Shown here in pieces: positions 27,001 through 30,000 of a stretch of DNA of 64,000 bases (positions are counted from its first letter, which is position 1; every line of letters begins with the position of its first letter). Source of the DNA: Escherichia coli. GTDB taxonomy: Bacteria; Pseudomonadota; Gammaproteobacteria; Enterobacterales; Enterobacteriaceae. Made by a program: the position numbers. The DNA lies in assembly GCF_041248615.1 (NCBI RefSeq), contig NZ_CP158426.1; one strand, given 5' to 3'.

Positions 27001-30000
27001 TTTCGCGCCTGGTTTGTACGCATTGCACAGGAACAGCTCCGCCAGGGGCCAAGTCCGCGCTGGTATCAGCAGGATTGTGCGGGCCTGGTGCGATTTTCGG
27101 CGAACGAGGCGCTGAAAATTCACGACAGCAAATGGCTAAAAAGTAACGGCATAGCAAGTCAGTATTTGCCGCCTGAAATGACGCTAACACCTGAACAGCG
27201 TCAACTGGCGCAAAACTGGAATCAGGGGAACGGGAAAACCGGCCCCTACGTGACCGCGATTAATTTGATTCAGTACAACAGCCAGTTTATTGGCCAGGAC
27301 ATAAACCAGGCGCTGCCTGGCGATATGATTTTTTTCGATCAGGGCGATGCCCAGCACGTAATGGTCTGGATGGGGCGTTACGTCATCTACCACACCGGAA
27401 GCGCCACGAAAACTGACAACGGAATGCGCGCAGTCAGTCTGCAACAACTTATGACATGGAAGGACACCCGATGGATACCCAACGATTCCAATCCCAATTT
27501 CATTGGCATTTATCGTTTAAATTTTCTGGCGCGATAGCAGCGTGCTTGTCCCTGTCTCTTGTGGGAACAGGGCTTGCTAATGCTGATGATTCGCTTCCTA
27601 CCAGTAACTATGCGCCGCCCGCCGGGGGAACATTCTTTTTGCTCGCTGACAGCAGTTTTAGCAGCAGTGAAGAGGCGAAAGTGCGACTGGAAGCGCCGGG
27701 GCGTGATTATCGGCGTTATCAGATGGAAGAGTACGGCGGTGTGGACGTTCGTCTGTATCGTATTCCTGACCCGATGGCATTTTTGCGCCAGCAGAAAAAT
27801 CTGCATCGCATTGTGGTTCAACCGCAATATCTGGGCGACGGGCTGAACAACACGCTGACCTGGCTGTGGGATAACTGGTACGGCAAATCTCGCCGCGTGA
27901 TGCAGCGTACTTTCTCTTCTCAGTCACGGCAGAATGTGACTCAGGCGTTACCCGAATTACAGCTCGGCAATGCCATTATTAAACCTTCCCGTTATGTACA
28001 GAACAGCCAGTTTTCACCGCTGAAAAAATATCCACTGGTGGAACAGTTCCGTTATCCACTATGGCAGGCTAAACCGGTCGAGCCGCAGCAAGGGGTAAAA
28101 CTGGAAGGCGCATCCAGCAATTTCATCTCGCCGCAGCCGGGTAACATCTATATTCCTCTCGGCAAACAAGAGCCGGGACTGTACCTCGTCGAGGCGATGG
28201 TCGGTGGATATCGGGCGACGACGGTGGTGTTTGTTTCCGATACCGTGGCGCTTAGCAAAGTGTCGGGTAACGAGCTCCTGGTGTGGGCCGCGGGTAAAAA
28301 ACAGGGGGAAGCGAAGCCGGGATCAGAGATCTTGTGGACTGACGGTCTTGGCGTGATGACCCGCGGTGTGACCGATGACAGCGGTACCTTGCAGTTACAA
28401 CATATATCGCCGGAACGTTCATACATTCTGGGTAAAGATGCTGAAGGCGGCGTTTTTGTCTCCGAGAATTTTTTCTACGAAAGCGAAATCTACAACACCC
28501 GCTTGTATATCTTTACCGACCGCCCTCTGTATCGTGCAGGCGATCGTGTTGATGTCAAAGTGATGGGCCGCGAGTTCCACGACCCGTTGCATTCATCCCC
28601 CATCGTCAGCGCCCCGGCGAAGCTTTCAGTGCTGGACGCCAACGGCAGTCTGTTGCAAACCATCAATGTCACGCTTGATGCGCGCAATGGCGGGCAGGGA
28701 AGTTTCCGCCTGCCAGAAAATGCTGTAGCCGGAGGTTATGAGTTACGTCTTGCTTACCGCAATCAGGTCTATAGCAGCAGTTTTCGCGTGGCAAACTACA
28801 TCAAGCCACATTTCGAGATTGGTTTAGCTCTCGACAAAAAAGAGTTCAAAACAGGCGAAGCGGTCAGCGGCAAACTGCAACTGCTTTACCCGGATGGAGA
28901 GCCGGTAAAAGATGCCCGTGTGCAGTTAAGTTTGCGCGCTCAGCAACTTTCGATGGTTGGTAACGATTTGCGTTATGCCGGACGTTTTCCCGTGTCGCTG
29001 GAAGGCAGTGAAACGGTGTCCGACGATAGCGGTCATGTGGCGTTAAATCTCCCCGCCGCTGATAAACCAAGCCGTTATTTGTTAACCGTCTCCGCCAGTG
29101 ACGGTGCGGCGTATCGTGTCACCACCACCAAAGAGATCCTCATTGAACGTGGCCTGGCGCATTATTCATTAAGTACTGCCGCACAATACAGTAATAGCGG
29201 CGAGTCGGTTGTGTTCCGTTATGCCGCGCTGGAATCTTCAAAACAGGTTCCTGTTACGTATGAATGGTTGCGTCTCGAAGACCGCACGAGCCATAGCGGA
29301 GAGCTACCGTCAGGCGGCAAATCTTTTACCGTCAATTTCTCTAAACCTGGCAACTACAATCTGACATTACGCGATGAAGACGGCTTAATTCTCGCTGGGT
29401 TAAGTCATGCCGTCAGCGGTAAGGGCAGCACGGCGCATACTGGTACGGTAGATATCGTGGCAGATAAAACGCTGTACCAGCCTGGCGAAACCGCGAAGAT
29501 GCTGATTACCTTCCCGGAGCCAATTGATGAAGCATTATTGACGCTGGAACGCGATCGCGTTGAACAGCAGTCGCTGCTTTCGCATCCGGCAAACTGGCTG
29601 ACGTTACAACGTTTAAACGATACCCAGTATGAAGCCCGCGTACCGGTGAGCAATTCCTTTGCGCCTAACATCACTTTTTCGGTGCTGTATACCCGTAACG
29701 GTCAGTACAGTTTTCAGAACGCCGGGATCAAAGTTGCCGTTCCCCAGCTGGATATCCGGGTGAAAACGGACAAAACCCATTACCAGCCTGGTGAACTGGT
29801 TAATGTCGAATTAACCTCGTTGCTGAAAGGTAAACCTGTTTCTGCGCAGCTAACGGTTGGCGTGATCGATGAAATGATCTACGCGCTGCAACCGGAAATC
29901 GCGCCGAATATCGGCAAATTTTTCTATCCGCTGGGGCGTAACAATGTGCGTACCAGCTCCAGTCTGTCGTTTATCAGCTACGACCAGGCGCTCTCCAGCG

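What the first reader, a model, noticed from the sequence alone, without database searches (positions are those of the whole stretch)
27456..27545. Uncertain yfaS start: 82-bp overlap with yfaT and a weak signal-peptide region
The only ATG starts for the yfaS frame (27456, 27471) lie inside yfaT, giving an 82-bp out-of-frame overlap and a long, weakly hydrophobic N-region before [20 protein letters not shown]. The I-A-A-C stretch resembles a lipobox, so YfaS could be lipid-anchored, but the preceding hydrophobic core is short. A non-ATG start after the yfaT stop cannot be excluded.
Basis: inference. Interest (0 to 1): 0.3.

Follow-up and report, generated by a model that had tools for sequence, protein, structure and literature searches.

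The report
yfaS start codon inside yfaT
The E. coli alpha-2-macroglobulin gene yfaS most likely starts at the ATG at 27471, 67 bases inside the upstream gene yfaT, and makes an ordinary cleavable export signal rather than a lipid anchor; this matches the curated K-12 record, while the automatic RefSeq start used for other strains cuts the signal off.

Summary
The only in-frame ATGs are at 27456 and 27471. yfaT stops at 27535-27537, so the overlap is 82 or 67 nt.

The best-supported start is ATG 27471:
- It alone has a Shine-Dalgarno site (AAGGA 27460-27464, 6-nt spacer, -5.5 kcal/mol). All other candidates score -1.5 or weaker.
- In 88 related loci this codon is ATG in 85 and GTG in 2. It is held by the yfaT Arg codon CGA, which is about 1% of Arg codons elsewhere in yfaT.
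- In several lineages it is the only possible start.

It gives a 38-residue Sec/signal peptidase I signal, [40 protein letters not shown]. The Ala-x-Ala|Asp/Glu-Asp site is conserved (Ala at -1 in 80 of 81 loci).

The IAAC lipobox is chance: the Cys is Tyr in a sister Escherichia species and is absent in other genera, and a Lys lies 8 residues before it.

Starts after the yfaT stop leave 8-13 uncharged residues and no usable signal. This includes GTG 27561, which RefSeq annotates.

The curated K-12 record already uses 27471, so the finding is ordinary. Side results: RefSeq's 1504-aa product looks N-terminally truncated, and the same internal start is conserved upstream of the annotated Pseudomonas MagD start.

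The parts
26914..27537 (+). yfaT (DUF1175/MagC family, NlpC/P60-like); stop codon TAG at 27535-27537
   Evidence: Pfam DUF1175 at E 7e-58. RefSeq annotation of the identical genome. The C-terminus ...[31 protein letters not shown] is nearly invariant across genera.
27471..32075 (+). yfaS (type II bacterial alpha-2-macroglobulin, MagD orthologue), 1534 aa from the best-supported start; intact in this strain
   Evidence: Pfam MG2, A2M_BRD, A2M and bMG10 domains. No CxEQ thioester motif. The curated K-12 record starts at the same ATG, giving the same 67-nt overlap.
27471..27473 (+). ATG-2, the proposed yfaS start codon. It is built from the third base of the yfaT Arg codon CGA plus the TG of the following Trp codon.
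   Evidence: This position is ATG in 85, GTG in 2 and CTG in 1 of 88 loci. The Arg codon is CGA in 78 of 78 unique genome loci, against 8 of 821 Arg codons elsewhere in yfaT. In an unbiased CGN metagenome scan it is CGA in 56 of 62 loci.
27460..27464 (+). Shine-Dalgarno sequence AAGGA, 6 nt upstream of ATG-2 (lies inside the yfaT codons AAG GAC)
   Evidence: Duplex with the 16S 3' end is -5.5 kcal/mol. The other five candidate starts score +1.3 to -1.5. gyrA, yfaA and yfaQ score -6.3, -5.4 and -5.4. The value is about -5.5 at this site in nearly all 88 loci.
27442..27483 (+). Block of suppressed synonymous variation in yfaT, A-rich, covering about -29 to +13 around ATG-2. Interpreted as the embedded translation initiation region of yfaS.
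   Evidence: Codon table of 78 loci: CAA 78/78, ACA 65/78, AAG 76/78, CGA 78/78, ATA 73 and ATT 5 with no ATC, CCC 77/78. The usual G/C-ending codons dominate elsewhere. The region folds no better than shuffled sequence, and worse in Pseudomonas (z -0.19, +2.05 and +1.22).
27456..27458 (+). ATG-1, the upstream in-frame ATG (would give an 82-nt overlap); judged not to be the main start
   Evidence: No Shine-Dalgarno site (+1.3 kcal/mol). Not ATG in 12 of 88 loci. Separated from ATG-2 by an in-frame stop in Salmonella.
27471..27584 (+). Predicted 38-residue Sec signal peptide. The n-region [17 protein letters not shown] runs to 27521, the h-region [18 protein letters not shown] is 27522-27575, and the c-region A-N-A is 27576-27584. 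Predicted cleavage is before Asp at 27585.
   Evidence: Feature table. Across 81 loci, -1 is Ala in 80, -3 is V/A/G/L/S in 80 (Asn in 1), +1 is E or D in 76, and +2 is D in 76. The orthologue MagD is periplasmic and has a predicted signal peptidase I site AAVQA|EDT (PMC3735191).
27534..27545 (+). I-A-A-C, the lipobox look-alike (Cys codon TGC at 27543-27545); judged to be a chance match
   Evidence: The Cys is Tyr in L006 and absent outside Escherichia. The regex matches in only 5 of 81 loci. The PROSITE-type rule fails because of a Lys at -8.
27534..27537 (+). ATAG: the ATA codon of the yfaS frame overlapping the yfaT stop TAG. This is the position where most relatives have an ATGA start/stop overlap (ATG-3).
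   Evidence: The site-3 codon is ATG in 70 of 88 loci. It is ATA in Escherichia, Superficieibacter and Salmonella.
27561..27563 (+). GTG used as the start by RefSeq/PGAP (1504-aa product beginning [10 protein letters not shown]); judged a mis-call
   Evidence: Annotation in 3 of 3 strains checked. No A2M CDS is annotated over 27441-27500 in 8 of 8 sampled genomes. No Shine-Dalgarno site (+0.6). It leaves 8 residues before the cleavage site. It is an Ala codon in L005 and L007.

Best explanation
yfaS translation starts at ATG 27471. The initiation site sits inside the last 67 nt of yfaT, in a different reading frame. A Shine-Dalgarno sequence (AAGGA, 27460-27464) and an A-rich, poorly structured stretch recruit ribosomes directly. 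The product is a 1534-residue precursor. Its first 38 residues form a Sec-type signal peptide with a long, mildly basic n-region, an 18-residue hydrophobic core and A-N-A. Signal peptidase I cuts it before Asp-Asp, releasing a soluble periplasmic type II alpha-2-macroglobulin. Shown here: the sequence layout, the Shine-Dalgarno strength, the conservation of the start codon through a rare synonymous codon in yfaT, the conserved cleavage motif, and agreement with the curated K-12 record. Inferred: actual use of this ATG in E. coli, Sec export, and cleavage at A-N-A|D-D.
For: (1) Between the upstream in-frame stop and 27546, the only ATG, GTG or TTG codons are ATG 27456 and ATG 27471.
(2) Only 27471 has a Shine-Dalgarno site. 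It scores -5.5 kcal/mol, against +1.3, -1.5, -1.5, -0.8 and +0.6 for the other five candidates. The local RNA is more open there than around the downstream candidates.
(3) In 88 loci from Escherichia, Salmonella, Serratia, Yersinia, Aeromonas, Pseudomonas and metagenomes, this position is ATG in 85 and GTG in 2.
(4) The ATG is kept by the Arg codon CGA: 78 of 78 loci, although CGA is 8 of 821 Arg codons elsewhere in yfaT. An unbiased CGN pattern scan of metagenomes gave CGA 56, CGG 3, and CGT or CGC 3 of 62.
(5) Synonymous constraint is confined to about -29 to +13 around this ATG. The yfaS frame has no stop from there to the yfaT stop in 84 of 84 loci. Synonymous resampling expects 54.6, and control regions gave 45-55 of 84.
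(6) In some lineages this is the only possible start. In L084 and L092 the whole signal peptide lies inside the overlap. Salmonella L088 has a stop between ATG-1 and ATG-2. P. schmalbachii, P. jinjuensis, L042 and L083 lack any later Met.
(7) All five genera (Escherichia, Superficieibacter, Entomohabitans, Salmonella, Cronobacter) that lack the ATGA start have a Lys just before the hydrophobic core. Pseudomonas mostly has Glu there.
(8) The A-x-A|D/E-D site is conserved.
(9) The curated K-12 MG1655 record begins yfaS at this ATG.
(10) The orthologue MagD is periplasmic and has no lipobox (PMC3735191).
Against: There is no experimental N-terminus or ribosome-profiling evidence for E. coli yfaS. 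A 17-residue n-region with net charge of only +1 is unusual, and no trained signal-peptide predictor was available. The ATG and the AAGGA partly follow from conserved YfaT residues (Trp-Lys-Asp-Thr-Arg-Trp), so only the synonymous positions count as independent evidence. A conserved run of rare codons could in principle serve yfaT itself, for example as a pause near its end. The loci are phylogenetically related, so the counts overstate independence. RefSeq/PGAP chooses a different start in most strains.
Confidence: 0.8

Rival explanations
1. Translation starts at the first ATG (27456), giving a 1539-residue precursor with five extra residues (MEGHP) and an 82-nt overlap.
For: It is the first ATG of the open frame. 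It is ATG in 76 of 88 loci, and the yfaT Thr codon that creates it is the otherwise rare ACA in 65 of 78 loci. A 1539-aa version is deposited.
Against: It has no Shine-Dalgarno site (+1.3 kcal/mol). It is CTG, TTG or GTG in 12 of 88 loci. Salmonella has an in-frame stop between it and ATG-2. It lowers the n-region net charge to 0. The A at this position is explained equally well by the A-rich leader of ATG-2.
Confidence: 0.07
2. Translation starts at a non-ATG codon at or after the yfaT stop. One option is ATA 27534, by termination-reinitiation at the ATAG overlap. The others are TTG 27546, CTG 27552, or GTG 27561 as in RefSeq.
For: Most relatives have an ATGA start/stop overlap exactly where E. 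coli has ATAG (ATG in 70 of 88 loci). RefSeq/PGAP annotates GTG 27561. Most deposited versions are 1504 aa (9 of the 15 members listed). AUA and CUG can initiate at roughly 0.02-3% of AUG (bioRxiv 10.1101/063800).
Against: None has a Shine-Dalgarno site (-1.5 to +0.6 kcal/mol), and TTG, CTG and GTG lie in more structured RNA. The products would carry 17, 13, 11 or 8 residues before the conserved cleavage site, with no positive charge. A protein whose orthologue is periplasmic would then lack a working export signal. GTG 27561 is an Ala codon in Escherichia sp. MOD1-EC7003 and E. albertii. The Lys kept just upstream of the hydrophobic core would serve no purpose.
Confidence: 0.07
3. YfaS is a lipoprotein. 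Signal peptidase II cleaves before Cys (I-A-A|C, Cys codon 27543-27545) and the protein is lipid-anchored.
For: I-A-A-C fits the loose lipobox pattern [LVI][ASTVI][GAS]C. The type I paralogue ECAM/YfhM is a lipoprotein, and MagD fractionates with the inner membrane (PMC3735191).
Against: The Cys is Tyr in Escherichia sp. E1V33 (L006) and absent in other genera. Only 5 of 81 loci match the pattern, one of them an unrelated chance hit. A Lys 8 residues before the Cys leaves a 7-residue core, so the PROSITE-type rule (recalled from memory) fails. The hydrophobic core continues for 10 residues after the Cys and ends in a conserved A-x-A|D-D site. Type II macroglobulins are described as lacking a lipobox, and MagD membrane association depends on MagB.
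Confidence: 0.03

Closest known systems
Curated E. coli K-12 MG1655 yfaS (b4500) annotation
   Same: It has the same start codon ([10 protein letters not shown]...), the same 67-nt overlap with yfaT and the same operon order yfaA-yfaT-yfaS-yfaQ-yfaP.
   Different: K-12 yfaS is a pseudogene with an in-frame stop at codon 1368. The allele in this window is intact at 1534 codons.
Pseudomonas aeruginosa MagD (PA4489), type II bacterial alpha-2-macroglobulin
   Same: It is about 60% identical in the N-terminal region. It has the same domain set, no CxEQ and no lipobox, and the same operon neighbours (MagB/YfaA, MagC/YfaT, MagE/YfaQ, MagF/YfaP). It has a cleavable signal with A-x-A|E-D and is periplasmic.
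   Different: The annotated MagD start lies after the magC stop and gives a 26-residue signal peptide. P. aeruginosa also has an ATGA start/stop overlap that E. coli has lost (ATAG). The E. coli operon shows no magA-like gene between gyrA and yfaA.
E. coli ECAM/YfhM and Salmonella Sa-A2M (type I bacterial alpha-2-macroglobulins)
   Same: They are large macroglobulin-fold periplasmic proteins with MG and bait-region domains.
   Different: Type I proteins have a conserved lipobox Cys and a CxEQ thioester and lie next to pbpC (PMC3735191). YfaS has neither.
Start/stop overlap (ATGA) translational coupling in operons
   Same: The operon is tightly packed. yfaA and yfaT overlap by ATGA (26914-26917), and the yfaS stop abuts the yfaQ GTG at 32076. 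Most relatives have ATGA at the yfaT/yfaS junction.
   Different: In E. coli the yfaT/yfaS junction has no start codon at the stop. Initiation is instead proposed at a Shine-Dalgarno-led ATG 67 nt inside yfaT.

Membership tests
Sec-type signal peptide cleaved by signal peptidase I | Positively charged n-region at the N-terminus | tested here: met
   From ATG 27471 the n-region has Arg5 and Lys17 and Asp2, net +1. From starts at or after 27534 there is no charged residue.
Sec-type signal peptide cleaved by signal peptidase I | Uncharged hydrophobic core of about 7-20 residues | tested here: met
   [18 protein letters not shown] is 18 uncharged residues, with a best 8-residue Kyte-Doolittle mean of 2.4.
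Sec-type signal peptide cleaved by signal peptidase I | Small neutral residues at -3 and -1 (A-x-A) before the mature N-terminus | tested here: met
   The site is A-N-A|D-D. In 81 loci, -1 is Ala in 80 and -3 is V, A, G, L or S in 80.
Sec-type signal peptide cleaved by signal peptidase I | Demonstrated export and cleavage | not testable with these tools
   Only the orthologue has data: a MagD(1-64)-mCherry fusion is periplasmic (PMC3735191).
Bacterial lipoprotein (lipobox, signal peptidase II) | Lipobox [LVI][ASTVI][GAS]C | tested here: met
   I-A-A-C at 27534-27545 matches the loose pattern.
Bacterial lipoprotein (lipobox, signal peptidase II) | Charge-free hydrophobic stretch before the lipobox (PROSITE PS51257-type rule, recalled from memory) | tested here: not met
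   A Lys lies 8 residues before the Cys, so the pattern fails for every candidate start.
Bacterial lipoprotein (lipobox, signal peptidase II) | Invariant Cys conserved in orthologues | tested here: not met
   The Cys is Tyr in L006 and there is no aligned Cys outside Escherichia. The pattern occurs in 5 of 81 loci.
Type II bacterial alpha-2-macroglobulin (YfaS/MagD) | Macroglobulin domains with a bait region | tested here: met
   Pfam MG2 (E 3e-26), A2M_BRD (5e-17), A2M (5e-13) and bMG10 (6e-6).
Type II bacterial alpha-2-macroglobulin (YfaS/MagD) | No CxEQ thioester motif | tested here: met
   No C.EQ in the 1534 residues. The only Cys residues are at 25 (signal peptide) and 1189.
Type II bacterial alpha-2-macroglobulin (YfaS/MagD) | Operon with DUF2138, DUF1175, DUF2300 and DUF2135 genes rather than pbpC | tested here: met
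   yfaA, yfaT, yfaQ and yfaP flank it with those Pfam families.
Twin-arginine (Tat) signal peptide | S/T-R-R-x-F-L-K motif directly before the hydrophobic core | tested here: not met
   E. coli has T-Q-R-F-Q, 12 residues before the core. The R-R seen in Pseudomonas (MDTRR) follows from the YfaT codons Pro-Asp-Ala/Glu and is far from the core.

The most novel reading that the evidence does not exclude
The Shine-Dalgarno-led ATG inside yfaT/magC may be the ancestral start of type II bacterial macroglobulins and still in use across the family. It is held in place by selection on synonymous sites of the upstream gene. That would include Pseudomonas, where MagD is annotated as starting 21-31 codons further down. 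MagD would then be made with a long basic N-terminal extension (MDTRR...). Alternatively it would be made as two precursor forms from two starts: the internal Shine-Dalgarno-driven ATG, and the Shine-Dalgarno-less ATGA reinitiation codon.
Probability: 0.4. Interest if true: 0.4.

Novelty: already known. Interest (0 to 1): 0.25.

Why it matters
The practical consequence concerns annotation. In every non-K-12 E. coli genome checked, RefSeq lists a 1504-residue YfaS that begins 8 residues before the signal-peptide cleavage site. Localisation predictors would therefore call this periplasmic protease trap cytoplasmic. The curated K-12 start (1534 residues) should be propagated instead.

The analysis also offers a clean genetic test. 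CGA to CGC at 27469-27471 is silent in yfaT but destroys the yfaS ATG.

The same conserved internal start in Pseudomonas raises the question of whether the studied MagD precursor is longer than annotated.

None of this changes what the protein is thought to do.

Tried and rejected
- **Lipoprotein reading:** rejected. The Cys is not conserved, a Lys lies at -8, and a signal peptidase I site is conserved downstream.
- **Tat signal:** rejected. E. coli has Q-R rather than R-R, the motif is far from the hydrophobic core, and it is a by-product of YfaT codons.
- **Structured RNA or a known RNA family around the start:** no Rfam match at E <= 1 in 27000-28000. Folding was no better than shuffles, with z of -0.19, +2.05 and +1.22.
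- **CsrA/RsmA binding to the three GGA motifs (AUGGAA, AAGGAC, AUGGAU):** considered because RsmA controls MagD synthesis. It was not tested, and no hairpin presents the GGAs.
- **Literature on the yfaS N-terminus:** searches found nothing relevant. The MagD papers give only predicted signal peptides and N-terminal sequencing of recombinant fragments.
- **Solved structures:** no sequence-detectable PDB relative at E <= 1e-5.
- **NCBIfam:** no model for YfaS or YfaT that would fix a start.
- **First protein search:** it returned only short or partial proteins, whose N-termini depend on the gene caller. The analysis was therefore moved to DNA loci.
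Full report
**What is in the sequence**

The window is E. coli. It is 100% identical to NZ_OW967178.1, and the locus occurs in 5393 of 5426 complete genomes. The region is the operon yfaA-yfaT-yfaS-yfaQ-yfaP, downstream of gyrA.

- yfaT (DUF1175/MagC) runs 26914-27537 and ends with TAG at 27535-27537.
- The yfaS frame is open from 27417.
- Its in-frame candidate starts are ATG 27456, ATG 27471, ATA 27534, TTG 27546, CTG 27552 and GTG 27561.
- After these come ...[14 protein letters not shown] and the macroglobulin domains.
- The overlap with yfaT is 82 nt from 27456 and 67 nt from 27471.

**The uncertainty exists in public data**

RefSeq/PGAP starts the gene at GTG 27561 in all three strains inspected, giving a 1504-aa product beginning [10 protein letters not shown]. 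In eight genomes sampled across the ranking, only yfaT is annotated over 27441-27500. The curated K-12 MG1655 record starts yfaS at the equivalent of 27471, with MDTQRF... and a 67-nt overlap. Versions of 1504, 1534 and 1539 aa are all deposited.

**Evidence within E. coli**

Only ATG 27471 has a Shine-Dalgarno site: AAGGA at 27460-27464 with a 6-nt spacer.

| Candidate start | Shine-Dalgarno duplex (kcal/mol) |
|---|---|
| ATG 27456 | +1.3 |
| ATG 27471 | -5.5 |
| ATA 27534 | -1.5 |
| TTG 27546 | -1.5 |
| CTG 27552 | -0.8 |
| GTG 27561 | +0.6 |
| gyrA, yfaA, yfaQ (for comparison) | -6.3, -5.4, -5.4 |

The three downstream candidates also lie in more base-paired RNA.

Only the two ATGs give a complete export signal: charged residues, then 18 uncharged residues, then A-N-A. 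Later starts leave 17, 13, 11 or 8 residues with no positive charge. AUA and CUG initiate at only about 0.02-3% of AUG in E. coli (bioRxiv 10.1101/063800).

**Comparative evidence**

I collected 80 loci from one genome per species. They cover Escherichia, Superficieibacter, Entomohabitans, Serratia, Yersinia, Enterobacillus, Edaphovirga and many Pseudomonas. I added loci from Salmonella, Aeromonas, P. aeruginosa and metagenomes.

The YfaT C-terminus is almost invariant and of fixed length...[25 protein letters not shown]. The yfaS frame read across it ([13 protein letters not shown]...) is therefore also conserved, as a passive consequence.

The informative sites are the synonymous positions of yfaT:

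- The Arg codon before the second Trp supplies the A of ATG 27471. It is CGA in 78 of 78 unique loci. CGA is only 8 of 821 Arg codons elsewhere in yfaT of the non-Escherichia loci.
- The neighbouring codons are also fixed on otherwise disfavoured A-ending forms: CAA 78/78, ACA 65/78, and ATA 73 with ATT 5 and no ATC. AAG is 76/78, which preserves AAGGA.
- This constraint is confined to about -29 to +13 around the ATG.

An unbiased metagenome scan used a pattern that left the Arg third base free. Among 62 unique YfaT-context hits it gave CGA 56, CGG 3 (a GTG start), and CGT or CGC 3.

Over 88 loci this position is ATG in 85, GTG in 2 and CTG in 1, with a Shine-Dalgarno score of about -5.5 nearly everywhere. 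The region folds no better than shuffled sequence, and worse in Pseudomonas. No Rfam family matches. Together this looks like an embedded translation initiation region.

**Lineages in which this start is the only option**

- In L084 (GTG start) and L092 (ATG start), the entire signal peptide lies inside the overlap.
- Salmonella has an in-frame stop between ATG-1 and ATG-2 and no usable start later.
- P. schmalbachii, P. jinjuensis, L042 and L083 have no later Met.
- Cronobacter (P0033) and Aeromonas gene calls also begin MDT/MDP.
- A lineage with a separate, non-overlapping start and its own ribosome-binding site (L085) has CGC at this Arg.

The yfaS frame carries no stop between this ATG and the yfaT stop in 84 of 84 loci. 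Synonymous resampling expects 54.6, and three control stretches of yfaT gave 45-55 of 84. Because the loci are related, these counts are descriptive and are not P-values.

**What E. coli lost**

Most relatives (70 of 88) also have an ATG in an ATGA start/stop overlap at the yfaT stop. It has no Shine-Dalgarno site (mean -0.5) and gives a short, ordinary signal peptide. The annotated P. aeruginosa MagD start is a further ATG downstream, with a 26-residue signal ending AAVQA|EDT.

Escherichia, Superficieibacter and Salmonella have ATA at that position (ATAG or ATAA), and Entomohabitans has CTA. Cronobacter also shows no later Met. All five of these genera have a Lys immediately before the hydrophobic core. 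It is created by the yfaT Leu codon TTA. Pseudomonas mostly has Glu there. This fits a signal peptide read from upstream.

**Lipobox**

I-A-A-C matches the loose lipobox pattern, but the evidence is against it:

- The Cys is Tyr in Escherichia sp. E1V33 and is absent outside Escherichia.
- The pattern occurs in only 5 of 81 loci.
- A Lys lies 8 residues before the Cys.
- The hydrophobic stretch continues past the Cys to a conserved signal peptidase I site. Position -1 is Ala in 80 of 81 loci, -3 is V/A/G/L/S in 80 (Asn in 1), +1 is E or D in 76, and +2 is D in 76.

YfaS has no CxEQ motif, so it is a type II macroglobulin. This class is described as having a signal peptide but no lipobox. MagD reaches the periplasm, and its membrane association depends on MagB (PMC3735191; PMC5764988).

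**ATG 27456 versus ATG 27471**

ATG 27456 has no Shine-Dalgarno site. It is lost in 12 of 88 loci and is cut off by a stop codon in Salmonella. Its A is still constrained (ACA), which I attribute to the A-rich leader of 27471. Minor use of 27456 cannot be excluded.

**Conclusion**

yfaS most likely starts at ATG 27471 (confidence about 0.8). The product has a 38-residue Sec/signal peptidase I signal cleaved at A-N-A|D-D. It is not a lipoprotein, and the RefSeq GTG start is probably a truncation.

The curated K-12 record already has this start, so the feature itself is known and ordinary. Two things are new:
- the comparative support, namely a start codon held by a rare synonymous codon of the upstream gene;
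- the observation that the same internal start is conserved upstream of the annotated MagD start in Pseudomonas. Whether it is used there is untested.

There is no experimental N-terminus for any of these proteins, and no trained signal-peptide predictor could be run here.

Noticed in passing
window 27561-27563 and RefSeq records NZ_OW967178.1, NZ_CP076232.1, NZ_CP124355.1: RefSeq/PGAP annotates the macroglobulin from GTG 27561, giving a 1504-aa product ([10 protein letters not shown]...) that lacks the signal peptide. Public databases also hold 1534- and 1539-aa versions of the same protein.
   Followed up: yes
L086 (NC_000913.3 2329798-2334402, minus strand): K-12 yfaS is a pseudogene with an in-frame stop at codon 1368. 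The allele in this window is intact (1534 codons from 27471).
   Followed up: partly
L017-L083 and L087 (Pseudomonas loci), about 81 to 60 nt before the magC stop: The Shine-Dalgarno-led internal ATG is conserved in Pseudomonas through the rare codons CGA, ATA, ACA and CAA inside magC. It lies 21-31 codons upstream of the annotated MagD start. MagD may therefore be longer than annotated, or may have two starts.
   Followed up: partly
L088 (Salmonella enterica contig), yfaT/yfaS junction near 3090-3200: Salmonella has an in-frame TGA between the positions of ATG-1 and ATG-2. The gene caller there chose an internal Met, which leaves a 14-residue uncharged leader. This looks like the same kind of truncated call as in E. 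coli RefSeq.
   Followed up: partly
window 26914-26917, 32073-32078, 33725-33730: The operon is tightly packed. yfaA and yfaT overlap by ATGA, the yfaS stop TAA abuts the yfaQ GTG start, and yfaP starts 4 nt after the yfaQ stop. This is consistent with coupled translation.
   Followed up: partly
window 25187-25229: The longest yfaA ORF starts at GTG 25187, but RefSeq uses ATG 25229. The NCBIfam PRK11410 alignment begins at residue 15 of the long ORF, which agrees with 25229. AAGGA lies upstream of that ATG (-5.4 kcal/mol).
   Followed up: partly
window 25081-25228: No magA-like gene lies between gyrA and yfaA, so the E. coli operon has five genes against six (magABCDEF) in P. aeruginosa.
   Followed up: no
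window 27456-27476: Three GGA motifs (AUGGAA, AAGGAC, AUGGAU) cluster around the start. MagD synthesis in P. aeruginosa is reported to be under RsmA control, so a CsrA/RsmA site at this internal start is conceivable. It was not tested.
   Followed up: no
window 27471-32075 (protein positions 25 and 1189): YfaS has only two Cys residues, one in the signal peptide and one at residue 1189. This echoes the report that MagD has no Cys at all.
   Followed up: no
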